A stretch of 64,000 nt of DNA from assembly GCA_965207455.1 (NCBI GenBank), contig CBDBMJ010000001.1, positions 32,001 through 96,000 on the forward strand. Direction: 5' to 3'. The translations under genes and the position numbers were made by a program. Positions within the stretch are counted from its first letter, which is position 1. Every line of letters begins with the position of its first letter. Source of the DNA: Bdellovibrionota bacterium. Its GTDB lineage: Bacteria; Bdellovibrionota; UBA1018; CAIPTA01; JAALKR01. A model generated the notes under the pieces. It did no database searches, was not told the DNA's origin, and was given only the letters and a program-made list of their open reading frames with translations. Shown here one piece after another: positions 3,842 to 39,202 of this stretch.

Positions 3842-4029
3842 CTTTCGTTCTCCTTTATTATATGGGTTGCGCTGCCGCTTATGAGACAACGCAACGCGTT
3901 TTTGTTTTAATTGATTTACATCATAGAGGAGGTATTGCGATAAGTCAAATATTTTTTGAAGCAAAGCAAAAAAAAATAAATGCCTGATTTTATTGGATTA
4001 TTTGAGAAGTTCAGCTCTTTTTATTCAAT
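3106..4029. repeat. Direct repeat copy B
   Basis: Near-identical to 820-1736; ends in TTATTCAAT, the last codons of tatD. Confidence 0.95.
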
Positions 4030-4818
4030 TGGGAGTTGAAAAAGATGGATGGTATTTTTTCGCGTAACTTGTGCCACTTCTTCCAGAGTCACTCCTTTGA
4101 TTTCTGCAACTTTTTCTGCGACCTCACGGGTGTACTGAGGTTTGTTTTTTTTTCCCCGGTAGGGGATGGGAGCTAAAAAGGGCGAGTCTGTTTCCACCAG
4201 CATTTTATCCAAAGGAACAATATCTCGAACAGTGGCACGGACCTCGTCGGCTTTTTTAAATGTAATCATACCAGAAAAGGAAACATAGTAGCCAAGCTCT
4301 AAGGCTTTTTCAGCTAACCAACCTTGGGAACTAAAGCAATGGAGAACGCCGGGGGGGCGGTTAGAGGGTTTCCACGCTTGGGAGTGTTCTTTGAGTAGGG
4401 GAAGGGTGTCGTCCTCTGACTCTCGGGTGTGGAGAACAATGGGCTTTTCACTTTCTACGGATAACTCCAACTGTCTTTGCATGGCCGTTTGTTGCGCTTT
4501 TTTGGGAGAGTGGTTGTAGTGGTAGTCTAGGCCAAGTTCTCCAATGGCAACACAACGCTTGCTCTTAGCGTAGTGCTTTACCTTTTCAAATAAATCGTCG
4601 GTGAGGTCTTTGGCTTCGTGGGGATGGATTCCTGAAGTATGAAATACGTTATCAAAGGTGGAGGCAATGGAATGGGCGCGCTCCAGGCTGTCGGGTTCTG
4701 CTGAGATGGTAATAATATGCTCAATGCCTGCTTCTTTTGCGTCGTCTATGAGGGTTTGGGTGCTGACGTCGTAGTCGTAGTCGAGGTGGGCGTGGCTATC
4801 AATCAGTCCTAGTTTCAT
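4021..4818 (-). CDS. tatD: TatD family deoxyribonuclease
   Basis: IDSHAHL, GIHPH, AIGELGLDY, HCFS, ETDSPFL motifs; ATG 4818 overlaps the upstream stop (TAATG). Confidence 0.93.
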   Translation of the reverse strand: MKLGLIDSHAHLDYDYDVSTQTLIDDAKEAGIEHIITISAEPDSLERAHSIASTFDNVFHTSGIHPHEAKDLTDDLFEKVKHYAKSKRCVAIGELGLDYHYNHSPKKAQQTAMQRQLELSVESEKPIVLHTRESEDDTLPLLKEHSQAWKPSNRPPGVLHCFSSQGWLAEKALELGYYVSFSGMITFKKADEVRATVRDIVPLDKMLVETDSPFLAPIPYRGKKNKPQYTREVAEKVAEIKGVTLEEVAQVTRKNTIHLFQLPIE

Positions 4819-6044: not shown

Positions 6045-6722
6045 TTATCCCAGCATAGAAATGAAAGCAAGAATCCGTTCTTGACCCGGTCCGTCGCGAC
6101 GGTAGGAAGGAAATTCTGTGGGATTGCTATAGGTGCAAGCTCCTAAACAATCCACCTCCAAGGGGATATCCAACTGTTTTGCAGCGGTCTGTAACTGCTC
6201 CTTGTTCTCTCTTTCCAAGTTAAATAAATATTTTTTCTTCCCGAGAAGTTTTAAACAGGAGGGAGAGAAATGTTGAGCCACCTCTTTTCCCACCTCAAAG
6301 ACTTTGAAACTAATGCAAGGGCCGATGCAAGCATGCACACCGCTTATTTCTGTTTGTATTTCTGCTTGCTCCACCAAGCTATGCAAGCTTTTTCCAGCGA
6401 TATTCTTTGCCGTTCCGCGCCAGCCAGCATGAACAGCCATGATGGCCCTTGCTTTTTGATTCTTATCCACAGCACATAATAAAATGGGTGCACAATCGGC
6501 AACACGCACTCCTATGGGTAGGGTTCTTTCTTCGGTTGCAATGGCATCTGCCTCTTTTTCTCGAAAAGGTTTGGAACGAATCCAATTAATAGTATCTCCA
6601 TGTACTTGCTTGGGGAAACTCACAAAGCCCCCGAAGTCAATCCTGTCTGAGCTTTGACTTTTGCGTGTGATAAAGCCATGGCGTAAATTTTTTATTTTTT
6701 CTAACTGGGTGGAATGTATCAT
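6045..6722 (-). CDS. pgeF: Peptidoglycan editing factor / YfiH laccase-domain protein
   Basis: QVHG, ADCAPIL, HAGWRG, IGPCI, PSYRRD motifs. Confidence 0.88.
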   Translation of the reverse strand: MIHSTQLEKIKNLRHGFITRKSQSSDRIDFGGFVSFPKQVHGDTINWIRSKPFREKEADAIATEERTLPIGVRVADCAPILLCAVDKNQKARAIMAVHAGWRGTAKNIAGKSLHSLVEQAEIQTEISGVHACIGPCISFKVFEVGKEVAQHFSPSCLKLLGKKKYLFNLERENKEQLQTAAKQLDIPLEVDCLGACTYSNPTEFPSYRRDGPGQERILAFISMLG

Positions 6723-7732
6723 AATTTACTTTCTTGTTTTGTGGCTCGAAGCTGATTCAGTATACTCTGAAAACTCTTGGGACTTGCTATGGAAAATTCA
6801 CATTTTTCTTTTTTTATGGGGTGATAGAAGGATAAAAAAGAGGAGTGGAGGAGTTGTTGACATTCCGACTCATGATCTTTAATAGCTTTACTCAGTTCAG
6901 GATGGTGCCTAGAAATGGATTGAAGTCCGCTATGGGCTTGTTTGCGAGCGGCTCTTGTGGAGTTATAGTATATGCTGTCTCCCAATAGGGGGTAGCCGTG
7001 GTGGGCTGCATGCACTCGAATTTGATGGGTGCGCCCTGTTTTTAACTGGGCAGAAAAAAAAGAAGATAGGGTAAACTCCTCTATACGTTTAAATGTGGTG
7101 TGAGCATTTTTTCCGTCGGCTTGAACACTCATTTTCCGACGTTGCTTTTTACTCCGTCCAATAGACTCATCCCAAACTCCCTCAGGCGGAAGCACCCCCC
7201 AGCATATCCCCAAGTAGATTCGTTTGACGGTTCGGGATTGGAACTGTTTGGATAGGGCCGTTTGCACGGCATCTGTTTTAGCAATGAGAAGTAAGCCACT
7301 GGTGTTTTTATCGATACGGTGTACGATGCCCGGTCTTTTTTCCTCTCCCATGGAAAGTACTCCACTTTGAATTTCTTTCCTACAGTGGTACATAATGGCG
7401 TTTACCACAGTGCCAGTCCAATTCCCTATTGCTGGATGCACCACCATTCCCGTGGGCTTGTTAATGACTAAAAGGGATTCATCTTCATGGACCACAGAAA
7501 GAGGGATATTCTCTTCTATTAGGGTGGTGGACGAATCCTTGGGAAAGTAAACAGAAATGCTCATCCCCACTGCCACAGAGGCACTCGCTTTTACTTTTTT
7601 TTGATTCAAGCAAGCATGGCCTTCTCGAATTAATTGCTGGGCGTAAGAGCGGCTAATGTCAGGAAAATAAAGAGCTAGATAGGCATCGAAACGTGAACTT
7701 TTTTCTTTTGCTATATGTTCTGAATCTTCCAT
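6719..7732 (-). CDS. rluD: 23S rRNA pseudouridine synthase RluD family
   Basis: S4 domain, NKPTGMVVHP, GIVHRIDKNTSG, TGRTHQIRVH; upstream of pgeF. Confidence 0.9.
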   Translation of the reverse strand: MEDSEHIAKEKSSRFDAYLALYFPDISRSYAQQLIREGHACLNQKKVKASASVAVGMSISVYFPKDSSTTLIEENIPLSVVHEDESLLVINKPTGMVVHPAIGNWTGTVVNAIMYHCRKEIQSGVLSMGEEKRPGIVHRIDKNTSGLLLIAKTDAVQTALSKQFQSRTVKRIYLGICWGVLPPEGVWDESIGRSKKQRRKMSVQADGKNAHTTFKRIEEFTLSSFFSAQLKTGRTHQIRVHAAHHGYPLLGDSIYYNSTRAARKQAHSGLQSISRHHPELSKAIKDHESECQQLLHSSFLSFYHPIKKEKCEFSIASPKSFQSILNQLRATKQESKL

Positions 7733-25082: not shown

Positions 25083-25643
25083 ATGATGAAAAATAATATA
25101 AAACACTATGTACTGATATTTTTATGTGCGTTTTCTGTGTCAGCAATGGCCGATGTACAGAATAATGGTCCGTTAGATCATGGGGCGAGTGATAAATCTT
25201 ACTTCGATCAACTGGGAGAGGCTTTTGACAATGCAGCACCAGTACAGGAGAGTGATGTTCTTGATTGGACAAGTGGACGATGCTTTTATAAAAGCACACC
25301 AAACAGGGCTAGGAACTCATTAATTGCTGGATTTATTGATGATGATTTGGTTGATTACGGCTTAACTCCGCGACATAAATATTCAATCATTGAGAGTAGC
25401 TCCACACATGCGAACTACTTTGATAATTTTATTGATGACAATCCTAACTTAGTAGAACTTATGGAGAGTCTTATAATAAATGAAGCAAAACCATCAACTC
25501 AGGAGGACGGAAGCCTTGTAGCTTATTTTAGTTCTAATACTAGATGGAATGTAAGGAAAGGAACAATAGGTCTAGAGTCAGATACAGAATATCTTTTGTT
25601 AGGAATATCCTATCCAGATGGCACAAAAGTCACTCCATACTGA
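25083..25643 (+). CDS. Secreted hypothetical protein, paralog 1 (3' end cut by IS630)
   Basis: AAGGAG RBS, signal peptide; shares NGPLDHGASD..YF.QL.EAF.NAAP.QESDVL.WT.GRCFYK with 27303-27887; its stop codon lies inside the IS inverted repeat. Confidence 0.75.
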   Translation: MMKNNIKHYVLIFLCAFSVSAMADVQNNGPLDHGASDKSYFDQLGEAFDNAAPVQESDVLDWTSGRCFYKSTPNRARNSLIAGFIDDDLVDYGLTPRHKYSIIESSSTHANYFDNFIDDNPNLVELMESLIINEAKPSTQEDGSLVAYFSSNTRWNVRKGTIGLESDTEYLLLGISYPDGTKVTPY

Positions 25644-26870
25644 AAATAACTATGACGATCCGTGAACTTGATATATCCGTTCGATAATACGAAAGTGTAG
25701 CAGATTCCCCGGATGGCTCACCATCTGGATAAAATTAAGTCATTTTTCATCTGAGCCATAGATATGAACTGCCTGTAATAAACTCAAGCCACGTCTTTTT
25801 GCGGAATGGATCTTAAAATATGAGAGTTTCTAAAGTCCGAGTGCAGAGCTTCTTAATAGCCGTCACTATCACAGAATGGATTCCATGCTTCACAACAGGT
25901 ATTCACAATATGCTCATAGTTTTTAAAACAAGTATTAGATAATTTTATTTTCCGGAGCTGTTGCCATACTTGCGTAGGATTGAGTCTCTGGGGTGGAGGT
26001 ACATTAAGGAAATATTTTTGGGAATAATCAATGCTCTGTTGTATGCCAGCTTGCCCTATCCATTAGAATAATCCCATGGTACCCCTCTTGAACTTCTTCG
26101 GAAATTTGCAAGTGAATTTTCATTCCAGAATTACATTCCGGCAAAATAAGTGCACAGCCAACATCTCTGTTGGGCAAACTGCTCCAAAAATATAGGTCGA
26201 TAAAAATTGTCTTCTTGGTCTTGTTCCCTTCGCAGCCCAAATTCTAGAAAGACTTCCCTGTTGCCCTACCCGGCATTCATCTTGCCACCAAATCTCTATT
26301 TTTTCAGAATCCAGCTTTTCTTTTATTTTCTCCGTTGCCTCTGGGAACTTTGCCTTTGTTCAATTGCTTCCACTTTGCTTGTCCGGATATCCAAACAATA
26401 TTAAGCCTATCTAGGAGAGCATACACTCCCGATAACGAATAACAGGAGTCGAATTTATTGCTAATAAATCCCGAATCTCCTGTTATCCTTCCACCATCCT
26501 TAGATTCTTGGAGATCCAGCTCTAATTTTGATTCCTCTGCATCAGGGGGTAAGCGAGGCTTTCTGCCACGACCTTCTCTACATATAAGACCCTCATAGTC
26601 ATAGGCTGCAAAACGCTCTAGCCAAGATTTCACAGATTTGTCACTATACCGAACAATACATGCAACTTCCTCGACTGTTTTCCCTTCTTGAAAATTTAAT
26701 AGAGCCAGCAACTTTACTTTTATTGAAGTTCTTTCCACCTTGTAGGTAGCTAAGAAATTATAATCATGAATTTTACTGGTTAGTTCCTTTATTTTTAGCA
26801 CTCAAAAAGAATAACCCCATTTTATCAAAAACACTCCCAGTGCGTCAGAAAACCGTAGTTATTTTCTGTA
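25638..26870 (-). mobile_element. Degraded IS630-family insertion sequence
   Basis: Imperfect 17-bp TIRs (TACTGAAAATAACTATG / CGTAGTTATTTTCTGTA, 15/17) ending in TA; HTH ORF 26304-26801 (GRKPRL, YSLSGVYALLDRLNIVW); DDE remnants (IILMDRASWH, LNP..QVWQQLR) with many frameshifts. Confidence 0.85.
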
Positions 26871-27302: not shown

Positions 27303-27887
27303 ATGAAAAGTATAATAGCAGTAATTTTTTTATGTACGTTTTCCGTAACAGCAGCAGCAACAATGCAGGAGCGAGATAATGGTCCGTTAGATCATGGGGC
27401 AAGTGATAACACTTACTTCGGTCAACTAGAAGAGGCTTTCAATAATGCAGCGCCAGCACAGGAGAGTGATGTTCTTGGTTGGACAGCTGGACGATGCTTT
27501 TATAAAGATCAACCAAACTTTGCTAAGAACGGAGCACTTGCTGGATTTACGGCTAGCGGTCATCCAGCTGGTCCTGGATTAGAGTCAGATCATATGTATG
27601 TAACCATGAACTCTCCGCTCAAAGCAGAGAGTTATTATGACGATTTTGCGCCGTCTGGCCACGACAATCTTATGGCAATAGTTGCCGCATCAAGATCAGC
27701 GCAGAGGGATGGAAGTCTTGTGGAGAGTCATCCTAGATTCGCTAACACGCACGCCATAAGAAAGGGAGTGATAATAGGTCCAAAATCAGATACAGAGTAT
27801 CTCCTGTCAAGAGGCAATAATAAACATGTTATCGGAGTCGCCTACAGCTACTGCTATTACTTTAAGAAATTAGATTTTAAAGACTAA
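27303..27887 (+). CDS. Secreted hypothetical protein, paralog 2 (194 aa)
   Basis: AAGGA RBS; signal peptide MKSIIAVIFLCTFSVTAAA; intact YSYCYYFK C-terminus. Confidence 0.8.
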   Translation: MKSIIAVIFLCTFSVTAAATMQERDNGPLDHGASDNTYFGQLEEAFNNAAPAQESDVLGWTAGRCFYKDQPNFAKNGALAGFTASGHPAGPGLESDHMYVTMNSPLKAESYYDDFAPSGHDNLMAIVAASRSAQRDGSLVESHPRFANTHAIRKGVIIGPKSDTEYLLSRGNNKHVIGVAYSYCYYFKKLDFKD

Positions 27888-28059: not shown

Positions 28060-28410
28060 ATGAACAATGAAAATCGAGAAAAAAATGATTTAGGTATTTG
28101 GGAGATAGGGGTAGACGAGGTGCGTGAGAACCGTAACGCTCTTCAATTAGTGGACGTGCGAGAGCCAGACGAGTTTGTGGGAGAACTGGGTCATATCGAC
28201 GGAGCAAACTCATCTTCCATACAAACAGCCCTAATGGATTACCTTCCCACCCTGTCCAAAGAACAAACCTATGTATTTATTTGCAGGAGCGGTAAGCGTT
28301 CTTCCCGAGCGGCTAAGCTGGCAGTAGAGCAAGGCTTCCCCCATGTTTATAATATGAAGGGTGGCATGATGGAGTGGAATCGCCGTTCTTTTCCCGTAAC
28401 CTCGGATTAA
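28060..28410 (+). CDS. Rhodanese-like sulfurtransferase
   Basis: [29 protein letters not shown]. Confidence 0.9.
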
Positions 28411-30527
28411 AGGCGGTAGGGCTTGTGGTCCTCAGCCATTTTCTTTAATTTTTTTATTTCTGTTGTGGGTTGCTTGCAGGTATGGTTTTCACAAACATAG
28501 GCAGTGGTTTTTTTATCGATTATTTTCTTTCCCCAAAATAGGGGAGAGGAGCTTTTATCCTCGAAGGGAGTTCCTTGTCCCATGGCCACCACTTTGTTTG
28601 GTAAAAAAGAATGATATATCCAAGAACGCATTTCGTTTGTTGGGGTAAGGGCAGATTTTTCGTCTATAATTACTAATTCTTTGGTTTGGTCCAGGTAGTA
28701 GTCCAGTGCTATGAGTCCTTGGGCGTAGCCGCTGGGAGATCGCACATAAAATCGAGAAAGAAATGTTAGTAATTCCTTGGCTCTTTGTTTATAGGTTTCT
28801 TGAAAGGTAAAACCTTGGAGTCGCAAAAGATTTAAGGCAGCAATGGTATTGCCGGAGGGGATGGCTCCATCGTAGGTATCTTTGCGTTTGTAGATGAGGG
28901 TGCTGTCCGACGATTCGCTGGTAAAGTATCCACCTTCCTTAGTGTCCCAGAAAAGCTTGTCCTGTGTTTTTTGCAGGTCGATAGCCCAGTCTAGCCACTC
29001 TTGATTGAAGTCACTTTCATATAAATGGAGTAGGCCATAGATGAGAAAAGCATAATCGCTAATTGTTCCAGAGAACCGACTATCTCCATCCCTATATCGT
29101 CTCAGTAATACATTATTTTTCCAAAGATTTTCTTTCAAAAATCGTGCACTTTTTTGAGCTGCTTTTTTGTAGCGAACATCTTGGGTAATTTGAAATCCTC
29201 GAGACAGAGCCGCAATCATTAAGCCGTTCCAGGCAGTGAGCACTTTGTCGTCCTTATGGGGATTTTCTCGCTGAGAACGTTTTTGAAAGAGTTTTTTTCT
29301 AGCTGCAACCATGGGCGCTTGCTGGCTTTTATTCCAATCTGTTTCGGGATCAATATTTAAAATACTATGTCCTTCAAAATTTCCTTTGGAGGTAACACCA
29401 TAAAAAGAAATGAGTGGAGCAGCGTTTGTTTTACCTAAGATTTGTTCTATCTCCTCCATTGTCCAAACATAAAACTCACCTTCTTTGCCCACCTCTCCTG
29501 CATCTTGGGCAGAATAAAATCCACCTTGTGGATGGGTCATTTCTTTTAGCACATAATCTAGGGTTTCCTTTGCCACTGACTTGTACATTTCTTTTTTTGT
29601 TACTTGCCATGCCTCTAAGTAGGTAAAGGCAAGGAGTGCATTATCATAGAGCATTTTTTCAAAATGGGGAGCTAGCCATTTCTTGTCTGTGGAATAGCGA
29701 TGAAAGCCTCCTCCCAGTTGATCATAGATGCCTCCGGAGGCCATGCTATCCAAGGTATGGGTGACCATTTGTAGGGCCTCTTTGTTTCCTGTTCGACGAT
29801 AAATTCTTAATAAAAGAGAAATTCCCATGCTGGGGGGAAATTTAGGAGCGGATCCAAAGCCACCGTCGATGGGATCGAATCGACCTTTTAGTTCCAAGAA
29901 CGCCTTCTTTAATGTTTCTTCACTTAAACTAATGGGAGAGTTCAGTTGTGCTTTTTCAAAATGGTCAAGAATTTTTTGTCCTGAATCTATTATGGCAGGT
30001 TGATCGTTTTTCCAAGCGTTTTGTATTTGTGACAGGAGGTTTAGAAACTGATCTTTGGGAAAATAGGTTCCACCAAAAAAAGGGTTTCCGTTGGGTGTTA
30101 AAAACACGCTCATGGGCCATCCACCTCTACCCGTAAGTGCTGTAACGGCATCCATATAAATATCATCCACATCCGGGCGTTCTTCTCTATCCACTTTAAT
30201 ACTAATGAAATTACGATTTAAAACATCAGCCACGTCCTGTTGTTCAAAAGATTCTTTTTCCATTACATGGCACCAGTAGCAAGTGGAATAGCCGATGGAC
30301 AGAAAAATGGGTTTATTTTCTTTTTGAGCGGACTGGAAGGCTTCCTCTCCCCAAGCATACCAATGCACGGGGTTTTCCCTGTGTTGTAATAGGTAAGGGC
30401 TTTTCTCTTTTCCCAGTCGGTTGTATTTTTTCTCCATATTTATACCTCCCGTATCCACATAATACCCGAAAGCTACCCAAAGGGAGAGACAAAGGAAGGA
30501 GCTTAGGAGAATTATTTTTTTATTCAT
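28407..30527 (-). CDS. Thioredoxin (DUF255) + six-hairpin glycosidase-like protein, YyaL/SPATA20 family, with N-terminal signal/TM
   Basis: [54 protein letters not shown]. Confidence 0.92.
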
Positions 30528-31272
30528 TTGTTACGTTAGAAATCTTTAGGCAATGATGCTGTATAAGAAATTGGATTAGGTTTGTTATTTGAAGTTTTGT
30601 TTTTTCTTGTTCTATAAGTTGGGCTAGGGATTTTAGGGGAGTACTCTTCTGCGCACTCAACAAGAAAGACCAAAGATCCAGGCTAAATGTTTGGTAATAT
30701 ATTGTTTCCTGCTGACGAACAATTACCAGAACGCTTTCTTTTTCTGGGGTAATTTCTCCTTCTTTGCGGTGGAGTGTGGCTAACCAAATTTGTTGCACAG
30801 GATGGGATATTTTCATGATCTTTGCATTCACTAGTCGTATGCTTTGATCATCTTCTAATTGGTTGAGTTCTCGTACATATTCTGTTTGCGGTGTCTCTAG
30901 GAAGAGTTCTTTTATTTTCCATTCCAAGCGGGCGAGTTCAGGTAGGAATGGAATTTCTTCTACCAGTTCTTTCAGGCTGTGGAGGTAGTCGGGAAAGGAA
31001 GAACCGTAATCGATAATGTTTGGGCTTACTAACGAGTTCGTTTGAATATAGCGAGGAGTAATTTTTTTAAAGAAATCTTCTCCCAGTATTTCTTGAATGG
31101 CTTCAAATGTATTGGCAAGAGATTCATTTAGATTTTGAAAATAATTATTTTGATAGATACTGATAGCTTGACTTACAGATAGATCACCACATGCAGTTAA
31201 TGTTTCTGAGGAGATGGGAGTGTTTTTTCCAAAATGTAAAAATTTTTCCTGAAATTCTGTATTAGTTTTCAT
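30520..31272 (-). CDS. DUF2063 (BufC/HvfC-like) MNIO partner protein
   Basis: [41 protein letters not shown]; directly follows DUF692. Confidence 0.82.
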
Positions 31273-32053
31273 TATAAATAGCGTCTACTGTTTTTACTTC
31301 GTTCAGCATGCTGTCTAGAGAGGGTATATTGCTATCCCTCTCAATTGTGGCAGGTGTGTGAGGAATATCTTTTGCGATTCTCCTATACAATTCCAGCACT
31401 GGAGGATGGATATTTTCTCCGTGTGTATCAATAATATGGGAGCCATAATCCGTATAACCGGCTAGGTGAATTTGTTGAATGGAGTTTTTTGGGAGACGGC
31501 AAAAAGCTTCATAAGCATCAAAGTGAAAGTTTGTGCTATTGACATAGATATTATTCACATCCAGAAGTAAAGAGCAATTATACCTTTGGGTGAGTTGGTG
31601 GAGGAATTCTTCTTCAGTACTGCGTTCTTCTTTTTCACGCAAGTATACGGAGACATTTTCCACTAGGAAGGGAATTTGGAGCAGATCCTGGATTTGTTTA
31701 ATTTTCTCTCCTATTCGTTGGAGCATTTTATCTGTATAGGCAATGGGTAATAGATCGGGGCTGTACTCACCGTGGTTACCGCAAAAGCATAGGTGATCGG
31801 ATATCCATTTTGGTTGAAAGGTTTTTACTAAGGTGTGCATGCCTTCCAAGTAAGATTTATGTAGAGGTTCGGGGGAACCCAGATTAAAACCGACACAATG
31901 AAATACAAGGGGATAAATATCCGCCAAGCGCTCTAATTTATCGTAGGCTGGTGATCCTTTGTATTGATAATTATCTGCCAACACCTCGATCCAAGGCACT
32001 TGTTTTTTTTCCAGCAGACCGGAGAAATGTTGGGGGCGGGCGCTTAGGCCCAC
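31262..32053 (-). CDS. DUF692 multinuclear non-heme iron oxidative enzyme (MNIO, BufB-like); start uncertain
   Basis: EVLADNY, HCVG..LGS, SDHL, LVENVS, LLDVNNIYV, QIHLAG, IDTH, IERD motifs; nearest in-frame canonical start after the precursor stop is GTG 32053. Confidence 0.9.
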   Translation of the reverse strand: MGLSARPQHFSGLLEKKQVPWIEVLADNYQYKGSPAYDKLERLADIYPLVFHCVGFNLGSPEPLHKSYLEGMHTLVKTFQPKWISDHLCFCGNHGEYSPDLLPIAYTDKMLQRIGEKIKQIQDLLQIPFLVENVSVYLREKEERSTEEEFLHQLTQRYNCSLLLDVNNIYVNSTNFHFDAYEAFCRLPKNSIQQIHLAGYTDYGSHIIDTHGENIHPPVLELYRRIAKDIPHTPATIERDSNIPSLDSMLNEVKTVDAIYNEN

Positions 32054-32070
32054 TCCTTTAATTACGTTTG

Positions 32071-32409
32071 TTAGAATTCTTTCCCACCCTTCGAGGCAGC
32101 CACAGAGCGATCTCGTATTTTCAGAACATAGTCTTTTACCGCGGTGTGTTTCAGGGCTGCCTTCACCGCATCGCAGTCTTTTTGGGTCATACGGAGCCAT
32201 TTGTTGGGGGCAAAATCATTCCGAGCAACGGTGGCACAATTATGGCCATGCGATGCACAGTTATGACCGCTTGCACTGCAATCATTTACCCATTTCGTAG
32301 ATACTCCATGACATTTTATTTTTTCTGCACTTGAGGCTTCTGCTAGAGGGGCAATTAATCCCACAGCAGCAATTCCTAAGATACTAGATATAATATTTTT
32401 TTTATTCAT
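32071..32409 (-). CDS. DUF2282/BufA-like secreted precursor 3 (5 Cys, duplicated GHNCA)
   Basis: GGAGG RBS, signal peptide; KC.GV....NDC...GHNCA..GHNCA....DF.P..W....C. Confidence 0.82.
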   Translation of the reverse strand: MNKKNIISSILGIAAVGLIAPLAEASSAEKIKCHGVSTKWVNDCSASGHNCASHGHNCATVARNDFAPNKWLRMTQKDCDAVKAALKHTAVKDYVLKIRDRSVAASKGGKEF

Positions 32410-32460
32410 TGTTGTTCCTCCATAGTTTTGTTTATGTTGTAGCTTATATCGATAAAGATA

Positions 32461-32491
32461 AAAAAAGGCTACAGTGTTTGTAGCCTTTTTT
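32461..32491 (-). terminator. Intrinsic terminator after precursor 2
   Basis: AAAAAAGGCTACA-GTGTT-TGTAGCCTTTTTT perfect stem with tails on both sides. Confidence 0.8.
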
Positions 32492-32515
32492 AATGTATTT
32501 CATTTAACAGTTTTG

Positions 32516-32836
32516 TTAAAATTCTTTTCCCTTACCAGAAGCAGTTACAGTGCCATCTCGTACGGTTAGAACATAGTTCTTTACCGCAGGGTTCATCAAG
32601 GCATTTTGAACTGCGTTACAGTCGTTTTGAGTCATAAGTAGCCATTCGTTGGGGTCAAAGTCAGTTTGAGCAGCACCTGAGCACGCGTGCCCATTTGCGT
32701 CACAGCCATTTACCCATTTTGTTGATACTCCCTTACACTTTACTTCTTCTGTACCTGAGGCTTCTGCTAGAGGGGCAGTTAATCCCGCAGCAGCAATTCC
32801 TAGGATGGTAGATATAATTATACTTTTTTTGTTCAT
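32516..32836 (-). CDS. DUF2282/BufA-like secreted precursor 2 (4 Cys)
   Basis: Signal peptide; KCKGV..NGC..GHACSG..DFDPNEW..C. Confidence 0.85.
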   Translation of the reverse strand: MNKKSIIISTILGIAAAGLTAPLAEASGTEEVKCKGVSTKWVNGCDANGHACSGAAQTDFDPNEWLLMTQNDCNAVQNALMNPAVKNYVLTVRDGTVTASGKGKEF

Positions 32837-32918
32837 TGTTTGTTCTCCTGTTATGTTATGTTAAGTTTTCGTTTCTCTATCTTCATAGTCTATATAACAT
32901 AGTACGGAGAAGGGCAAG

Positions 32919-32946
32919 AAAAAAAAGGCTACAGAATTGTAGCCTT
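32919..32946 (-). terminator. Intrinsic terminator after precursor 1
   Basis: AAGGCTACA-ATTC-TGTAGCCTTTTTTTT on minus strand; same stem as 32461-32491. Confidence 0.8.
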
Positions 32947-32953
32947 GTCTTTG

Positions 32954-33289
32954 CTAGATTTTTTTAATATTCCTTTTAACGTGAACGATGGTTTTCTTTT
33001 GAACCGCCGTTACATAATCTTTTACATGGCCATTAGTCAACGCTGATTGAATACTCTTGCATGCCGCTTTATTATAAGCATACATCCACTCCATCGGGTC
33101 AAAATTTTTCTTCGCCTTTCCTGCACACTGATGACCGCGCGCAGCACAGTCGTTTCCTCCTTTTACAGCAATACCTTCACAACGGTATTTGCCCGTTTTT
33201 GCTTTTGCTATTGCGTCTGAGGAAGTGGCGCAACCAGTTGCGATAATTCCTGCTAACGCAGATACTATAATCATGTTTGTCTGCTTCAT
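32954..33289 (-). CDS. DUF2282/BufA-like precursor 1, possible lipoprotein
   Basis: RCEGIA.KG.NDCA..GHQCAG.A..NFDPMEW..C; IATGC lipobox-like motif. Confidence 0.82.
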   Translation of the reverse strand: MKQTNMIIVSALAGIIATGCATSSDAIAKAKTGKYRCEGIAVKGGNDCAARGHQCAGKAKKNFDPMEWMYAYNKAACKSIQSALTNGHVKDYVTAVQKKTIVHVKRNIKKI

Positions 33290-33301
33290 ATTTTTTTTCT
33301 C

Positions 33302-33982
33302 CTATTTCTTTTGTTTTTGTTTATTTTTTTTGTAGGGCTCAAAGAGCAAACTAATTGTTAGTGTCACTTCGTTACCTACAAATCTTCCGGCTATTTTTTT
33401 TGTTATGCTAGTGCCCTCTTTTTGCCAGTTCAGACCAAACGTACGCCGGTCGATCTTTCCAGTGGCCTCTACTCCAAGAACCTTTTTTTTGTTTTTTACT
33501 TTGGTTTTTGTTTTTACTTTTAGAGTTACTTGTCGTTTGGTTTTTAAAATCTTTAACTCTCCTTTGATTGTGGGAGAGTTGCGTTTATAAGAGGAAGCGC
33601 GAAACTCTATATAACGGTTCTTTGGAATAATATCGTACACATCATCTCGAACATGAAAGAAATCTTCACCCCTGAGATGGGCGTCCCTGTCCTTTTCATT
33701 AGTGTCGATTTTGTCCACATCTATTTTGATATAGATATCTTTTATCTCATTTTTTGTAAGAGTTGCGGTTCCTTCAAATACTTTAAATCTTCCTGTCACA
33801 GGCACGAGTCCCAGGTGCTTCACACTAAATGTAACGGAAGAATGGGCTTGGTCTACTTTTAGTGGCGTGCTGGAAATGGCAAAGCTCGTAGCAAAATGGG
33901 GCATAACAACGACGGCTGCATAGAGAGCAATGGTAAGAGCAATGGATATTCCTATTATTTTGCTTATTGAGAATGTTTTCAT
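33302..33982 (-). CDS. YceI family periplasmic lipid/polyisoprenoid-binding protein
   Basis: DQAHSSVTFSVKHLG, V.GRF, IDTNEKDRDAHLR..DFF, IDRRTFGL. Confidence 0.9.
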   Translation of the reverse strand: MKTFSISKIIGISIALTIALYAAVVVMPHFATSFAISSTPLKVDQAHSSVTFSVKHLGLVPVTGRFKVFEGTATLTKNEIKDIYIKIDVDKIDTNEKDRDAHLRGEDFFHVRDDVYDIIPKNRYIEFRASSYKRNSPTIKGELKILKTKRQVTLKVKTKTKVKNKKKVLGVEATGKIDRRTFGLNWQKEGTSITKKIAGRFVGNEVTLTISLLFEPYKKNKQKQKK

Positions 33983-34004
33983 AATAATCTCCTAGGGTAT
34001 GTGT

Positions 34005-34397
34005 TTATAGATTGTCTCCAATCAGTGGCAATTGCTTTCTGCGAATCCAAACAATGGGTAGGCAAGAGGCAAGCACAATAATCAAGAGGATGATATGTTT
34101 GCCGTTGTCTCCCTGTATGTCTATTCCCAGGGTAGTGGCATGGGCTAAAATTGCTCCACACATTACGCCGATACTGAGGAAGGCACCAGTGGCAGAAAAA
34201 ATTTCAGTCATAAGGAGTAGACCGGACAGAACCTCCAACGCTCCAATGATATAACGACCAGAGGGTTCCATCTCCAGTGTGGAAAAGATATAAAGGTCTG
34301 TGGGGTTGTCGCCAAATTTCCAAAAACCCACGGGTAGGAGAATTGCGGCAGCCATAATTTGTAGGCACCAAGCGAGTATTTTTTTCTTTTTATCCAT
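34005..34397 (-). CDS. DoxX family membrane protein
   Basis: Four TM helices; KF..P, GRYIIGALE, MCGAILAH. Confidence 0.8.
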   Translation of the reverse strand: MDKKKKILAWCLQIMAAAILLPVGFWKFGDNPTDLYIFSTLEMEPSGRYIIGALEVLSGLLLMTEIFSATGAFLSIGVMCGAILAHATTLGIDIQGDNGKHIILLIIVLASCLPIVWIRRKQLPLIGDNL

Positions 34398-34429: not shown

Positions 34430-35929
34430 TTAGTAATATTGAGGTATGTAAAGGTTATCTTTATTTAATTCACGGTGACTATATTTTCCCATGGAAACAA
34501 GCATTTCTTCATGCTCATGGCAAAGATTGTGCACATAGTTTGCTACCTGACTTGATTTATTTTCTATAGCTAAACCTTTGTACAAACGGGGATCGTGGGT
34601 GGTGATTCCCACGGGGCAAGTATTGGAATTGCATTGCAGTGCTTGAATGCATCCCAGGGACAACATAAATCCTCTGGCAGAATAGATGGCATGGGCGCCA
34701 AAGGACATGGCCATGATCTGTCTTCCCACGTTGATAAGTTTTCCTGCAGCTACCAGTTTTAGCTTGTCCCTTAGTCCTATTTCCTCTAGTAGTTTGCGCA
34801 CCTCAGGAAGTGCTTTAAAAATAGGTATTCCAACGTCGTCCATAAATGCTTTGGGTGCGGCTCCAGTGCCGCCCTCAGCACCGTCAATGGAAATATAATC
34901 CGGGTGTACGTTTTGCTTTTTCATTTCTTTTAACAAATCGGATAATTCCTCCGGTCTACCGAGACATAATTTCATCCCAACGGGTAGAGCAGAAACCTCT
35001 TGCACTCTTCGTATAAATTGCACTGTTTTACTGGGAGAGCTGCACTCCATATGACCGGGAGGGGAAACAACATCTTGATCCATGGGTACTCCTCGTAGCT
35101 GGGAAATTTCCTCCGTAATTTTTTCTTTAGGAAGGAGGCCACCTTTTCCGGGCTTTGCTCCCTGGGACATTTTAATCTCAATCATTTTCACTTGATCTAG
35201 GTCAGCGATTTCTTCCAATTTTTTATCGTTTAGGCTAGCATCCTCATTACGCACACCAAATTTAGCGGTGCCCATTTGGAAGATAAGTTTACAATCCTCC
35301 TCGATATGGTGTTTGGGATAGCCACCCTCTCCAGTGTTCATGGGTATGTCGGCTTTTTTTGCTCCTCTGGCTAAGCTTCGAACAGCAGGAATGCTTAGAG
35401 CTCCATAGCTCATAGCACTTATCATCATGGGTTTTGTAATGGTAAACGCAGAACTGATGCCACGCTCTTCGCCGAAGATTACGGAAAAAGGCTTGAATTT
35501 GGATTTGTCCACTGGATACATGGAGTGGCGAAGTTTTACTTCATCGTTATTAAAATTATATAACGATCCAAATGCGGCAGAGGAGTCCACGTTTTTTGAT
35601 TTCCGGTATACCTCGGCTCTTTCCACTCGATTAAAGGGGCGTTCCTCCGTATCACTCATATAAAGGTATTGACGGAACTCTGGTCCAATACTTTCAATGA
35701 TATAGCGAAGCTGGGCAACAAAACCGAAGTTACTCAAAAGGGTATGTTCTTTTTGAATATGGAGGAAATAGATATTGATGAGTGTGAGAAGAAAAAATGC
35801 GACAGTTAGGAAATGAAAATAAAAGGAAACATAGGTTCCCATCATTATGAAGATTACCAGTGCAATATACAGGGATTTGTTTGCTATTTGAGAAATTTTT
35901 TCTAAATTTACGGTGATTTTTGCTGACAT
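34430..35929 (-). CDS. FMN-binding glutamate synthase family protein with N-terminal TM helices
   Basis: ISAMSYGALS, NTGEGG, EIKMSQGAKPGKGG, DGAEGGTGA, GCIQALQCNSNTCP. Confidence 0.9.
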   Translation of the reverse strand: MSAKITVNLEKISQIANKSLYIALVIFIMMGTYVSFYFHFLTVAFFLLTLINIYFLHIQKEHTLLSNFGFVAQLRYIIESIGPEFRQYLYMSDTEERPFNRVERAEVYRKSKNVDSSAAFGSLYNFNNDEVKLRHSMYPVDKSKFKPFSVIFGEERGISSAFTITKPMMISAMSYGALSIPAVRSLARGAKKADIPMNTGEGGYPKHHIEEDCKLIFQMGTAKFGVRNEDASLNDKKLEEIADLDQVKMIEIKMSQGAKPGKGGLLPKEKITEEISQLRGVPMDQDVVSPPGHMECSSPSKTVQFIRRVQEVSALPVGMKLCLGRPEELSDLLKEMKKQNVHPDYISIDGAEGGTGAAPKAFMDDVGIPIFKALPEVRKLLEEIGLRDKLKLVAAGKLINVGRQIMAMSFGAHAIYSARGFMLSLGCIQALQCNSNTCPVGITTHDPRLYKGLAIENKSSQVANYVHNLCHEHEEMLVSMGKYSHRELNKDNLYIPQYY

Positions 35930-35934
35930 ATTTT

Positions 35935-37332
35935 TTATCTCTTTAGGTGGGGGGATTGAATGACGGTCATTTTCTCTAAACTCATATCTTTAATGGACTC
36001 TCCGATGCCTCCTAGGCCTAAACCGGATTGTTTGTAGCCACCAAAAGGCATCCAGTCTGTACGGAAGGCACTGTGATCATTTACCATGGTGGCTAAGCCC
36101 TCCAATTCCTGGGAAGCCCAAAGAGCGGCGTCCAGGTTTTGGGTAAATACACTGGCTTGGAATGCATACTCCACATTATTCGCTCTATGAACCGCATCTT
36201 GAAAATTTTTAAAACTCTGAACTAAAACAACGGGGCCGAAAACTTCTTTCTTAGCAATAGTAGCCTCTTCCGGAGTATCCACAAGAATGGTTGGAGCAAA
36301 AACAGTATTGGATATTTTCTTACCACCCAGTACGGCTTTAGCGCCCATGGAAATGGCTTCTTTTACCCAAGCCTCCACTCTGTCCACCTCCCGGGGCAGG
36401 ATTAAGGGACCCACGTCCGTATCTTTTTTCAAAGGATCTCCCACATTCAATTCGGAACTTAGTTTTATGAAACCATCGAGAAAAGAATTTAGAATAGATT
36501 CGTGTACAAAAACTCGTTGCACGGATACACAAACTTGCCCAGCATGGTAGAAACCACCTTTAACTAAAAGAGGAAGGCAGGAGGCAAGATCGGCCGTTTC
36601 ATCTACGATAGTTGGAGCAGATCCGCCGTGTTCAAGAGCACACTTGGCTCCGTCAGGTAGTTTCGATCGTAAGAACCAACCCACTTTGCTGGAACCAATA
36701 AAACTTAAAAAACTGTTATGGGGATGGGTTACTAGTTTTTCCGCAACTTCATTGTCACAAACCACACTATGGCAATAGTCCTTATCTAGCCCAGCCTCAT
36801 ACAGGTAATTTACAATAGATTTACAGGAAAGAGGAGTGGTTAGGGCTGGCTTAATAATTACTGGGCACCCTGCTGCTATTCCAGGAATTACCTGATGGAT
36901 AATTAAATTAAAAGGATGGTTGAAAGCACTAATGGCCACCACCATTCCTCTAGGTCGATGATGGGTGTAGGCTATGCGCCCTTGAGAGGATGGAGTAATA
37001 TTCATGGGCACCTCCCTTCCTGAGAGGGCTTTTATTTCATCTATGGCAACACCCACACCGTTAATACCTCTTTCCACTTCCACCATAGAATCTTTATAAG
37101 GCTTGCCACCCTCTAAGATAGCTTGCTCCACAAGGGAAGGCTTATTATTTATAAGAATGGTTTTAAATTTTTCTAGGATTTCTATCCGTTCCACTTTAGG
37201 AAGCCATTTCTTTTTATTGTCCACAATATTTTGTGCACGCTCAATGTACTGAAGAAGGGTATCCTCAGAGACAAACTCTTCCTCTTTTATGGTTTCCAGA
37301 TTAAAGGGATTTTCTATTGATAATTTTTCCAA
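35935..37332 (-). CDS. Aldehyde dehydrogenase family protein
   Basis: AFNHP, FIGS, LEHGG, AGQVCVSVQR, EVFGP, PFGGYKQSG. Confidence 0.93.
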   Translation of the reverse strand: MEKLSIENPFNLETIKEEEFVSEDTLLQYIERAQNIVDNKKKWLPKVERIEILEKFKTILINNKPSLVEQAILEGGKPYKDSMVEVERGINGVGVAIDEIKALSGREVPMNITPSSQGRIAYTHHRPRGMVVAISAFNHPFNLIIHQVIPGIAAGCPVIIKPALTTPLSCKSIVNYLYEAGLDKDYCHSVVCDNEVAEKLVTHPHNSFLSFIGSSKVGWFLRSKLPDGAKCALEHGGSAPTIVDETADLASCLPLLVKGGFYHAGQVCVSVQRVFVHESILNSFLDGFIKLSSELNVGDPLKKDTDVGPLILPREVDRVEAWVKEAISMGAKAVLGGKKISNTVFAPTILVDTPEEATIAKKEVFGPVVLVQSFKNFQDAVHRANNVEYAFQASVFTQNLDAALWASQELEGLATMVNDHSAFRTDWMPFGGYKQSGLGLGGIGESIKDMSLEKMTVIQSPHLKR

Positions 37333-37352
37333 GTCAGAATCCTTGCATTTAC

Positions 37353-38996
37353 TTAGACCAAGCAGGTTTTATTTTTTAACTCCTCTAAGAATACTTTTTC
37401 ATTCTCAGAATAGTCAATAGGAACTTCAATCAAATGCACTCCCCCATCATTTAAACATTTTTTTAGTGTGGGCGTTAATTCGCCAGGGGCGGATATGCGG
37501 TGCCCTTTTGCGCCATAGCTTTCTGCATACAGGACAAAATCTGGGTTTCCAAAGTCTAAACCAAAATCTTCAAAGTCCATTCCCAGTTGTTTCCATTTGA
37601 TCATTCCGTACGCGTTATCTCTTAGGACTAAAACAACAATATTTAGACCAAGGCGCACCGCTGTTTCCATTTCCTGAGAATTCATCATAAATCCCCCATC
37701 ACCACAAATAGCCACCACCTCTTTTTTGGGATTACAAATTTTTACTCCCATGGCCACAGGCAGGCCAGCGCCCATTGTGGCAAGGGCATTATCTAGGAGA
37801 AGAGTATTGGGTTCGTGAGCGTTATAATTTCTTGCAAACCAGATCTTATACATCCCATTGTCTAGGGATAGAAAACCATCTGAGGCAACGGCTGCGCGCA
37901 CGTCTGCAACCAATCGCTGAGGTACGAGGGGAAACCCAGTGTGGTCGCTTTTTTCTTGAATATTCCCATCCACCTCTACTTTCACACGTTTAAAGTAGGA
38001 AAAATCCCAGTTCTTAGAAGTGGAGATGGTATTTCTTAGGCAAGACATGCTATGAAAAATATCTCCCACAATTTCATGTTGGGGGAAATAAACGTCGTCA
38101 ATTTCTGCGGAGAAAAAGGAAACATGGATAACTTTCTTTGCATTTCGTTCCATAAAAAATGGAGGTTTCTCCACCACATCGTGTCCGATATTGAGAATGA
38201 GGTCTGCCCGGGCCACGGCACAGTGTAAGTAGTCATGGTCGGAAAAAGCAGCGGTACCCAGGTAATTGGGATGCCTTTCATCCATTACACCTTTGCCCAT
38301 CTGTGTGCAGAAAAAATACATTCCTGTTTTTTCGATAAATTCCCCGATTATTTTACGAACACGTCCACAACGATTGGCTCCTGATGCCACCAATAAAAGG
38401 GGCATCTTAGCCTCACCAAGCATTTGAATTGCAGTGGCAATATCCGTCTCGGGTGCTTGCTCTCTGGAAACGGATGTTATGGGGAAGGGTTCTTGATCCA
38501 CTGTTTCTCTTGCAATGTCTTCAGGGAGTTCCAAGTGCACAGGCCCAGGTTTCTCACGCTGTGCGATTCGAAAACAATTTCGCACTAGAGAAGGAATTGT
38601 ATTTCCGTTTACAATTTGTCGAGTAAATTTTGTGACTGGCTTCATCATTTCCACAATATCGATGATTTGGAAGCGACCCTGCTTGCTTCTTTTAATGGGT
38701 TTTTGTCCTGTGATAAATAAAAGAGGCATTCCCCCCAACTGGGCATAAGAGGCACAGGTCATAAAATTTGTAGCTCCAGGACCTAGTGTGGCCATTGCTA
38801 CTCCCGCCTTTCCTGTGAGTCGTCCATAGGCTGCTGCCATAAAGCCAGCCCCTTGCTCATGGCGAGTAAGGATTAATTTTATGGAAGAACTCTTTAGGCT
38901 GTTTAGCATGTCCAGATTCTCCTCTCCGGGGATTCCAAATATATATTCCACGCCCTCATCCTCTAGGCACTTTATGAATAGATCGCTTGCTTTCAT
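37353..38996 (-). CDS. Acetolactate synthase large-subunit-like ThDP enzyme
   Basis: MKASDLF, FGIPGEEN, RHEQGA, GDGGFMM..N; no small subunit adjacent. Confidence 0.9.
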   Translation of the reverse strand: MKASDLFIKCLEDEGVEYIFGIPGEENLDMLNSLKSSSIKLILTRHEQGAGFMAAAYGRLTGKAGVAMATLGPGATNFMTCASYAQLGGMPLLFITGQKPIKRSKQGRFQIIDIVEMMKPVTKFTRQIVNGNTIPSLVRNCFRIAQREKPGPVHLELPEDIARETVDQEPFPITSVSREQAPETDIATAIQMLGEAKMPLLLVASGANRCGRVRKIIGEFIEKTGMYFFCTQMGKGVMDERHPNYLGTAAFSDHDYLHCAVARADLILNIGHDVVEKPPFFMERNAKKVIHVSFFSAEIDDVYFPQHEIVGDIFHSMSCLRNTISTSKNWDFSYFKRVKVEVDGNIQEKSDHTGFPLVPQRLVADVRAAVASDGFLSLDNGMYKIWFARNYNAHEPNTLLLDNALATMGAGLPVAMGVKICNPKKEVVAICGDGGFMMNSQEMETAVRLGLNIVVLVLRDNAYGMIKWKQLGMDFEDFGLDFGNPDFVLYAESYGAKGHRISAPGELTPTLKKCLNDGGVHLIEVPIDYSENEKVFLEELKNKTCLV

Positions 38997-39202
38997 TTTT
39001 ATTTCCTTCCGTTTCTTAATCCTAAACAATAAATGAAAAATATCCAGATATTAAATAAAAAAATCCCTTTCAATTTGCCCTTCTCTCTCGGAAGAAAGAA
39101 AGGAACCTTGCGGTATAAAGAGCATGTTGAGGTTTGAGACCTTTAATAGATACACGGTAAACAGTCAAAGCCTCACGGGCAGTTGATTTATTTTTCCATG
39201 TT

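What the first reader, a model, noticed from the sequence alone, without database searches (positions are those of the whole stretch)
28407..34397. Multi-precursor bufferin-like MNIO RiPP locus with three diverged, C-terminally extended precursors
Seen: co-directional DoxX-YceI-A1-A2-A3-DUF692-DUF2063-DUF255. All three A peptides have a signal peptide and the C..NxC..GHxC..DFxPxxW..C pattern. Established: DUF2282 + DUF692 + DUF2063 + DoxX loci make bufferins, copper-binding peptides whose central Cys residues become thiooxazoles. Unusual here: three precursors served by one enzyme pair, and a shared tail of about 33 aa after the last Cys (V/I-x-x-A-L...V-K-x-Y-V) that I do not recall from short bufferins. 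Net charge also differs (A1 very basic, A2 acidic, A3 basic), YceI and DUF255 are embedded, and no ECF sigma/anti-sigma is adjacent. Inference: a diversified metal-chelating RiPP cocktail, possibly a new subfamily.
Basis: partly seen in the sequence, partly recalled or inferred. Interest (0 to 1): 0.85.

Follow-up and report, generated by a model that had tools for sequence, protein, structure and literature searches.

The report
Helix-tailed bufferin metal-peptide cluster
This is a gene cluster of the known bufferin type, whose exported peptides likely bind copper; its three peptides share a conserved 33-residue tail, predicted to be helical, that marks a small subfamily we did not find described, and its one modifying enzyme has no standard start codon in the usual place, so it may be weakly made here.

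Summary
DoxX-YceI-A1-A2-A3-MNIO-DUF2063-DUF255 lie on the minus strand, and all three precursors pass the Pfam DUF2282 cut-off, so this is a bufferin-1 locus.

The tail is the real novelty. It is a conserved ~33-residue module after CysIV, predicted as two helices (pLDDT 93-98). It occurs in 19 of 150 representative hits and in 7 of 400 other genomes of the phylum, and travels with its own MNIO clade. None of 11 subfamily motifs occurs in a published list of about 24,000 candidate precursors.

The rest is less unusual. Tandem precursors are published. The other tailed loci have one intact copy, so triplication is local. YceI and DUF255 recur beside other bufferin operons.

Verdict: new variant of a known kind. 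Copper buffering is inferred and the tail's function is untested.

The parts
34005..34397 (-). DoxX-family membrane protein (BufD-like), 130 aa
   Evidence: Pfam DoxX_2 27.3 bits vs cut-off 26.3; 54-63% identical to syntenic genes in G262, G304 and G342
33302..33982 (-). YceI-family protein, 226 aa, likely exported; a recurrent neighbour of bufferin precursors in this phylum
   Evidence: Pfam YceI 107.1 bits; upstream of the precursor in 5 of 5 class loci; within 1.5 kb in 6 of 29 bufB loci
32954..33289 (-). Precursor A1, 111 aa, DUF2282, net +13; lipobox-like IATGC, so likely a lipoprotein; tail at 32957-33058
   Evidence: orthologue P0006 at 100/95 support; lipoprotein call is from the motif only, no predictor was run
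32925..32946 (-). Terminator-like hairpin (AAGGCTAC...GTAGCCTT, then a T run) after A1
   Evidence: the same hairpin follows A2
32516..32836 (-). Precursor A2, 106 aa, DUF2282, four Cys, net -1; Sec-type signal ending A-E-A (by eye); tail at 32519-32617
   Evidence: AF2 model: beta strands 31-35 and 65-69, helices 70-80 and 83-101
32461..32491 (-). Terminator-like hairpin after A2; none after A3
   Evidence: alignment of the repeat units
32071..32409 (-). Precursor A3, 112 aa, DUF2282, net +8, 66% identical to A2; tail at 32074-32172
32236..32277 (-). 7-residue tandem repeat in the A3 metal loop (SASGHNC / ASHGHNC), giving a second His-x-Cys and a fifth Cys; a possible third thiooxazole (inferred)
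   Evidence: absent from the other 25 rows of alignment A5
32053..32077 (-). A3/bufB junction without a canonical start. ACA at 32071 overlaps the A3 stop, where the sister protein has Met. ATT at 32077 has a Shine-Dalgarno-like match (-7.4 kcal/mol); GTG at 32053 lies inside the GVGL motif and has none.
   Evidence: one read-derived contig spans it without gaps
31262..32077 (-). MNIO (DUF692) maturase BufB, about 263-271 aa depending on the start; the only MNIO gene in the genome
   Evidence: PF05114 286.5 bits; NF050167 284.9 vs cut-off 310; invariant H57, D91, H92, E137, D170, N173, H201, D214, H216, E243 present
30520..31272 (-). DUF2063 partner protein BufC (PME type 1), 250 aa; overlaps the bufB end and has no SD, so likely translationally coupled
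28407..30527 (-). DUF255 thioredoxin-domain / alpha-alpha barrel protein, 706 aa; overlaps bufC by 8 nt; accessory, not core
   Evidence: beside buf operons in 3 of 29 loci; absent from the tailed loci of G262, G218, G304 and G342
34430..39029 (-). Upstream block (acetolactate-synthase-like, aldehyde-dehydrogenase-like and FMN glutamate-synthase-like genes) that travels with DoxX-YceI-bufA in a genus of another class; likely a horizontally moved block
   Evidence: 60-76% identity in G262, G304 and G342 vs 60-62% for SHMT; the GltS-like gene was not found in closer relatives G001 and G004. ALS and ALDH labels are recognised from sequence; only GltS has a Pfam call.

Best explanation
This is a bufferin-1 (DUF2282) gene cluster whose three precursors carry a conserved 33-residue tail, predicted to fold as two helices, and whose products would be exported and likely chelate excess copper in the cell envelope.

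Mechanism, by analogy with Caulobacter Buf1 (inferred): BufB with BufC converts the two central Cys of each precursor into 5-thiooxazoles (-4 Da each). Sec export and signal cleavage follow, CysI-CysIV form a disulfide, and the peptide folds round Cu. A1 would be lipid-anchored through its lipobox-like Cys; A2 and A3 would be soluble. A3, with a duplicated His-x-Cys, could take a third ring.

The tail replaces the short C-x-K-I-x-G-G end of ordinary Buf1. It most likely stays in the mature protein as a basic, amphipathic helical hairpin that stabilises the fold and holds it on membranes or on another copy of itself (inferred, about 0.4 for this step).

The three copies are local duplicates of a gene-plus-terminator unit in a block that was likely acquired horizontally. 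In this strain BufB is probably made at a low level, from a non-canonical ATT start or by coupling to A3.
For: Family: all three precursors pass DUF2282, BufB and BufC pass their Pfam cut-offs, and the gene order is A-B-C. The predicted core has the two short beta strands (31-35, 65-69) reported for Buf1, with invariant Trp65. Chemistry and function come from bioRxiv 2024.03.18.585515 (whole text).

Tail: it is sharply bimodal. 19 of 150 representatives score 34-59 bits and the other 131 score under 4 bits; 17 of the 19 were in the training set. It is predicted at pLDDT 93-98, has net charge +1 to +12, and a best 11-residue hydrophobic moment of 0.46-0.84. It is internally duplicated in P0009 and P0126. 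KGTVVATKRGKKF is kept in G304 and G342, where no bufB follows, so it is conserved as protein.

Duplication: the same hairpin follows A1 and A2, and the A2/A3 clade has 100/99 support. No P-type ATPase was found in this genome, while 14 of 14 controls have one, so a copper sink would fill a gap.
Against: No modification or metal binding was tested. BufB scores under the NCBIfam bufferin-maturase cut-off (284.9 vs 310), and no precursor hits an NCBIfam BufA1 model at E<=0.1. The Met two residues after the conserved Trp, which the Buf1 paper places on the copper-facing side, is Leu, Tyr or Arg here. bufB lacks a canonical start, unlike 29 of 29 other bufB loci. Five of the seven tailed genes in the phylum sample have no bufB beside them. 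No copper-responsive regulator is adjacent, and no NrsF was found. The membrane or oligomer role of the tail rests on composition alone.
Confidence: 0.7

Rival explanations
1. In this strain the cluster is decaying. bufB lost its ATG, perhaps by conversion from the A2 3' end, so little or no maturase is made and A1-A3 stay plain disulfide/thiol peptides. bufC and DUF255, which depend on coupling, would fall with it.
For: The sister BufB (88.6% identical) begins MDLIQGVGL where the window reads TNVIKGVGL, with the Thr codon ACA overlapping the A3 stop. The bases after the A3 stop (TAACAAAC) match those after the A2 stop (TAACAAAA). 29 of 29 other bufB loci have a canonical start within 25 codons of the GxG motif. 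The GTG at 32053 has no SD. A read-derived contig confirms the sequence. G304 and G342 carry the same block without bufBC.
Against: The bufB frame and all invariant residues are intact. ATT at 32077 has an SD as strong as those of A1, A2 and YceI (-7.4 vs -7.3 to -7.4). It is the only MNIO gene in the genome. The sister's DNA was not seen, so the lost ATG is inferred from protein alignment.
Confidence: 0.2
2. The tail is a follower (recognition) sequence for a dedicated BufB/BufC clade rather than a functional part of the mature metallophore.
For: [quoted passage not shown] The MNIOs nearest to this BufB sit behind tailed precursors: a +1-frame G-K-K-F-stop signature is in 15 of 16 eligible near-clade N-termini vs 2 of 77 others (signature chosen after seeing the alignment, and the sequences are related).
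Against: The tail is kept in G304, G342, G240, G184 and G408, where no BufB/BufC is adjacent. It is predicted as an ordered part of the fold. Clade linkage is also expected from simple co-inheritance of an operon.
Confidence: 0.15
3. The three peptides are a selected cocktail with different metal specificity or stoichiometry, for example A3 binding two Cu ions or another soft metal.
For: Core charges differ (+2, -3, +2) and A3 has an extra His-x-Cys. In the sister set, paralogues P0004/P0005 are 62.5% identical in the core vs 91% in the flanks (p=0.0008), with one Cys gained and one lost. Both related loci keep three copies.
Against: The window's A2/A3 pair shows no core-specific acceleration (p=1.0). 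Loss of CysII in P0005 also fits relaxed selection. The other tailed loci have one intact copy. This genome readily multiplies genes for secreted proteins (a family of about 20), so dosage or drift explains the copies as well.
Confidence: 0.2
4. The tail's conserved end is only a by-product of overlap with the bufB start (the SD and start codon are encoded within the last codons of the precursor).
For: In G262, bufB starts at a TTG 15 codons before the GVG motif, inside the tail, with AAAGGA upstream. The +1-frame overlap is general in the near clade.
Against: The same C-terminus is kept where bufB is absent, where bufB has its own downstream ATG (G218), and in A2, which is followed by a terminator. 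The first 20 residues of the tail lie outside the overlap and are conserved too.
Confidence: 0.05

Closest known systems
Bufferin 1 (BufA1/B1/C1/D1, DUF2282 family; Caulobacter vibrioides buf1; bioRxiv 2024.03.18.585515, whole text read)
   Same: DUF2282 precursor with an N-terminal signal and CysI-CysIV; MNIO, DUF2063 and DoxX genes; order A-B-C; predicted two-stranded core with conserved Trp; length within the published 80-120 aa.
   Different: A conserved 33-aa helical tail in place of the short GG end; three tandem precursors, one lipoprotein-like and one with an extra His-x-Cys; DoxX upstream of the precursors; YceI and DUF255 present; no SigF/NrsF-type regulators found; BufB under the NCBIfam cut-off and without a canonical start.
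Bufferin/MNIO landscape of PMC12452194 (parts 2, 3 and 5 of 8 read; word searches of the main text and two spreadsheets; the supplementary PDF was not readable)
   Same: Reports tandem precursor genes, stand-alone precursors, Buf1 lengths of 30-835 aa, Buf1/Buf1 fusions, lipoprotein signals in about 16% of Buf2, and up to five DUF2282 genes per genome.
   Different: The main text has no hit for YceI, DUF255, thioredoxin, extension or Bdellovibrio, and no tailed subfamily is described in the parts read.
Captophorins (5-thiooxazole metallophores; PMC13097082; passages and two spreadsheets searched; the PDF was not readable)
   Same: MNIO plus PME1 partner plus a Cys-rich exported precursor; DUF2282 is one of its three precursor groups.
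   Different: 0 hits for 11 exact tail or subfamily motifs in its 24,106-row precursor list, against 2,094 hits for the ordinary motif KAGKNDC. That list is RefSeq-only, and this subfamily was found mostly in unnamed assemblies.
Bufferin 2 (Buf_6/12Cys) loci of the same phylum
   Same: YceI directly upstream, tandem precursors in L006 and L007, and lipobox-like signals in some.
   Different: Six-Cys precursors without the tail; A1 scores only 15.1 bits vs a cut-off of 60 on the BufA2 model.

Membership tests
Bufferin 1 (DUF2282) | Precursor matches DUF2282 (PF10048) | tested here: met
   42.7, 33.1 and 27.0 bits vs cut-off 22.4; the Atlas's nearest clusters are BufA1
Bufferin 1 (DUF2282) | Four conserved Cys (I-IV) | tested here: met
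   All four are present in A1-A3; A3 has a fifth in the loop and A1 a fifth in the lipobox
Bufferin 1 (DUF2282) | N-terminal Sec (or lipoprotein) signal peptide | tested here: inconclusive
   Basic N-terminus, hydrophobic stretch and A-E-A or IATGC are seen by eye and by regular expression; no signal-peptide predictor was available
Bufferin 1 (DUF2282) | MNIO gene directly downstream, with the family's conserved residues | tested here: met
   PF05114 286.5 bits; the invariant His/Asp/Glu columns are present; their role as iron ligands is recalled, not tested
Bufferin 1 (DUF2282) | MNIO is of the bufferin-maturase subgroup (NCBIfam NF050167) | tested here: inconclusive
   Best NCBIfam hit, but 284.9 bits is under the curated cut-off of 310
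Bufferin 1 (DUF2282) | DUF2063 (PME type 1) partner after the MNIO; DoxX in the cluster | tested here: met
   DUF2063 62.9 bits, 250 aa; DoxX_2 27.3 bits vs 26.3
Bufferin 1 (DUF2282) | Two-stranded beta core as in Buf1 | tested here: met
   AF2 strands 31-35 and 65-69 at pLDDT 96-98, matching the strands described for Buf1; no solved bufferin structure was found to superpose
Bufferin 1 (DUF2282) | CysII and CysIII converted to 5-thiooxazole | not testable with these tools
   Needs MS, UV or NMR
Bufferin 1 (DUF2282) | Copper binding, copper induction and protection | not testable with these tools
   Needs experiments
Bufferin 2 (Buf_6/12Cys) | Six or twelve conserved core Cys; BufA2 model | tested here: not met
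   Four or five core Cys; NF050166 gives 15.1 bits vs 60 for A1 and no hit for A2 or A3
EGKCG/oxazolin captophorins | Repeated EGKCG motifs | tested here: not met
   No such motif in A1-A3; the HvfB model gives 213 bits vs 360

The most novel reading that the evidence does not exclude
A separate bufferin subfamily, found here only in Bdellovibrionota-type genomes and unnamed assemblies, has gained a 33-residue helical domain and its own MNIO clade. The domain anchors or oligomerises the metallophore. In this lineage the precursor has triplicated into a lipid-anchored form, a soluble form and a three-thiooxazole form with different metal handling, and the shared maturase is throttled by a non-canonical ATT start.
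Probability: 0.2. Interest if true: 0.65.

Novelty: new variant of a known kind. Interest (0 to 1): 0.42.

Why it matters
Bufferins are the largest MNIO-modified RiPP family, and how BufBC recognises its folded substrates is still open, because the signal peptide is dispensable. A natural subfamily with a discrete, ordered C-terminal module, a matching enzyme clade, stand-alone members and natural core variants (an extra His-x-Cys in A3, a lost CysII in P0005) is a ready-made swap-and-delete series. It can test substrate recognition, ring number and metal stoichiometry, and it suggests a membrane-held or oligomeric form of the metallophore. It does not point to new chemistry or a new kind of system.

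Tried and rejected
Pattern scans for loci found nothing: genome contigs, metagenome contigs and viral contigs. These are weak negatives, because the genome contigs patterns did not fit G262, G218 or G304, which genome search then found.

The class search found the tail only in the window's own genome: 6 of 127 genomes matched, and only G000 matched beyond profile position 86. A search for longer fused forms found none among 8,000 candidates, which is weak evidence. Plasmids gave one partial DUF2282 hit, with 58% of the query covered; it was not opened.

Structure: no PDB sequence relative, no Foldseek match at E<=0.001, and best VIA Z 3.4. This shows neither a new fold nor a function. The Atlas search with the tail region gave only scores of 0.80-0.81 to short DUF2282 clusters. 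The first AF2 model, from 9 sequences, was poor (pLDDT 57) and was superseded. Earlier scan findings were not open. No RNA holder was listed.

Rejected: (1) An assembly indel at the bufB junction: one contig of run X1 spans 30682-32986 without gaps, though X1 may be the source sample. (2) A programmed +1 frameshift making a precursor-MNIO fusion: canonical starts exist inside or after the tail in G262, G218 and P0274, the frame differs between loci, and a fusion would export the enzyme. (3) The ATG at 32200 as the bufB start: it is 48 codons before the motif, inside A3, with a weak and distant SD; unlikely but not excluded. (4) DUF255 as a core gene: it is absent from the G262, G218, G304 and G342 loci. 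(5) One clade for all six window and sister precursors: neither shown nor rejected (p-AU 0.075).
Full report
**Observation.** The eight genes are present and co-directional on the minus strand. All three precursors pass the Pfam DUF2282 cut-off, and the MNIO, DUF2063, DoxX, YceI and DUF255 assignments hold. The genome is 2.38 Mb in 3 contigs and 94.7% complete. It has no other DUF2282 or MNIO gene, no NrsF, and two Sigma70_r4_2 hits, both far from the locus. It is unnamed. Proteins from family f22 of the same phylum are named Bacteriovoracaceae or Halobacteriovoraceae, so the phylum is likely Bdellovibrionota (inferred), with the window in a different class.

A1 has a lipobox-like IATGC; 4 of 26 tailed precursors match the same expression. 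A3 carries a 7-residue tandem repeat with a second His-x-Cys. The same terminator-like hairpin follows A1 and A2 but not A3, so the copies look like duplicated gene-plus-terminator units. A2 and A3 are 66% identical, and A1 is about 36% identical to either. Net charges are +13, -1 and +8.

**The tail is real and defines a subfamily.** A profile of A1-A3 found 592 representatives at E<=0.001, of which the best 150 were examined. A tail-only HMM splits them sharply: 19 score 34-59 bits and 131 score under 4 bits. Seventeen of the 19 were training rows; the other two, P0009 and P0126, carry the tail twice. Length alone is not special, since 48 of 150 have 25 or more residues after the last Cys, the others mostly low-complexity. 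With 26 sequences, AF2 models residues 31-106 at pLDDT 93-98 as the Buf1-like two-stranded core plus helices 70-80 and 83-101. No solved structure matches clearly. In a tree that includes the tail columns, 9 tail-less rows separate from 27 tailed rows at 99/95. Tailed genes occur in 7 of 400 other genomes of the phylum sample and in 9 of 237 genomes of family f22, with one full-length match each. None was seen in the other 126 genomes of the window's class.

**How unusual is the layout?** Three tandem copies are rare. Of 25 genomes with DUF2282 among 401 searched, only this one has adjacent copies. A second trio (P0004-P0006) lies on an 8,061-bp contig, inferred from equal contig lengths. Its BufB is 88.6% identical to the window's, so it is kin and not an independent case. 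P0004 and P0005 group with each other rather than with A2 and A3 (99/89), which points to repeated duplication or gene conversion. Two-copy tandems of Buf2 type occur in L006 and L007, and tandem precursors are in print (PMC12452194). YceI is upstream in 5 of 5 class loci. Within 1.5 kb of bufB, YceI appears in 6 of 29 loci and DUF255 in 3 of 29.

**Related loci.** G262, in another class, has the same block ALS-ALDH-GltS-DoxX-YceI-bufA-bufB-bufC with one tailed precursor and no DUF255. G304 and G342 have the block without bufBC. G218 has a tailed precursor before a BufB-BufC fusion. G240, G184 and G408 have stand-alone tailed genes. Block proteins are 60-76% identical to the window's, against 60-62% for SHMT, and the GltS-like gene was not found in two closer relatives. 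Horizontal transfer is therefore likely, on the strength of one control gene.

**The enzyme.** The nearest MNIOs form a group at 52-59% identity. Their called N-termini read as the +1 frame of the tail's end: the signature is in 15 of 16 eligible near-clade proteins against 2 of 77 others. Three near-clade and nine other proteins had too short an N-terminus or no motif and were dropped; the signature is post hoc and the sequences are related. G262 shows the overlap directly, with a TTG inside the tail. So the tailed precursors have their own maturase lineage. The tail is not a mere overlap artefact, because its end is intact where bufB is absent.

**The missing start codon.** In the window, bufB has no canonical start within 25 codons of its GxG motif, whereas 29 of 29 other loci do. 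The sister protein's Met aligns with an ACA codon that overlaps the A3 stop, and the bases after that stop match those after the A2 stop. A contig from run X1 spans the junction without gaps (X1 may be the source sample). An in-frame ATT at 32077 has an SD match as strong as those of A1 and A2, while the GTG at 32053 has none. The frame and conserved residues are intact. Low-level expression is my best guess; silencing is the main rival.

**Mechanism.** Shown: family membership by profile, gene order, tail conservation, duplication traces and the start-codon anomaly. Predicted: the helical fold. Inferred from Caulobacter Buf1 (bioRxiv 2024.03.18.585515, all four parts read): thiooxazole formation on CysII and CysIII, a CysI-CysIV disulfide, Sec export and periplasmic copper sequestration. 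No P-type ATPase was found in this genome, nor in G001, G262 or G304, while 14 of 14 controls have one; this is consistent with a copper-sink role but does not show it. The tail is basic (+1 to +12) and amphipathic and can be duplicated, which suggests a membrane-binding or self-packing module. Evidence for a functional cocktail is mixed: core-specific divergence in the sister pair (p=0.0008) but none in A2/A3 (p=1.0).

**Literature.** Four full-text searches were run. PMC12452194: parts 2, 3 and 5 of 8, a word search and two spreadsheets (one cut when stored) were seen; the main text does not mention YceI, DUF255 or an extension. PMC13097082: passages and two spreadsheets were seen; 11 exact motifs of this subfamily have 0 hits in 24,106 rows, against 2,094 for a control motif. 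Both papers' supplementary PDFs were unreadable and may show alignments that include tailed members. Other papers were seen only as search listings, and subscription journals are largely not covered.

**Verdict.** A bufferin-1 locus by every feature testable here, belonging to a small helix-tailed subfamily that I did not find described. The three-precursor layout is a local expansion, and the maturase start is anomalous.

Noticed in passing
L093 (G541:C112) 80-234, 1205-1359, 2166-2308, 4340-4479, 6658-6812: The 3' 140-155 nt of a tailed bufA gene occurs five times in a 7-kb contig (81-90% identical to the copy in the intact gene); only one copy is a whole gene. The copies are interleaved with ORF6N-like, Fic/Doc-antitoxin-like and NrfA/NrfH-like cargo (labels by eye). 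It looks like repeated integration into the tail-coding end, or a cassette array; an assembly artefact is not excluded.
   Followed up: partly
window 25083-25643 and 27303-27887: Two secreted-looking proteins of about 190 aa with no Pfam hit above cut-off belong to a paralogous family with about 20 tblastn matches across this genome (25-90% identity), several in tandem.
   Followed up: partly
L050 5950-7629 (G218): A natural BufB-BufC fusion of about 550 aa, with PF05114 and DUF2063 in one frame, behind a tailed precursor.
   Followed up: partly
whole genome G000; also G001, G262, G304: No P-type ATPase (PF00122) was found in these four genomes (88-98% complete), while 14 of 14 control genomes have one.
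   Followed up: partly
window 737-1672 and 3092-3964: Two near-duplicate minus-strand ORFs with identical starts, flanking an enoyl-ACP-reductase-like gene; no Pfam hit for the first.
   Followed up: no
window 26028-26801: Broken IS630-like transposase remnant: HTH hits below cut-off, with a DDE-like fragment in another ORF (label recalled). It lies about 1.6 kb downstream of the cluster.
   Followed up: no
L051 2098-8732 (G164): A tail-less bufferin operon preceded by DUF255, an ECF sigma/anti-sigma pair, and SCO-like and PCu(A)C-like genes (labels by eye): a copper context that supports a recurring DUF255 link.
   Followed up: partly
P0005 and P0140: Tailed precursors that have lost a central Cys (P0005 lacks CysII; P0140 lacks the His-x-CysIII segment) but keep the tail.
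   Followed up: no
window 28060-28410: A single-domain rhodanese on the plus strand converges on and overlaps the DUF255 stop by 4 nt; no link to the cluster was seen in other loci.
   Followed up: partly
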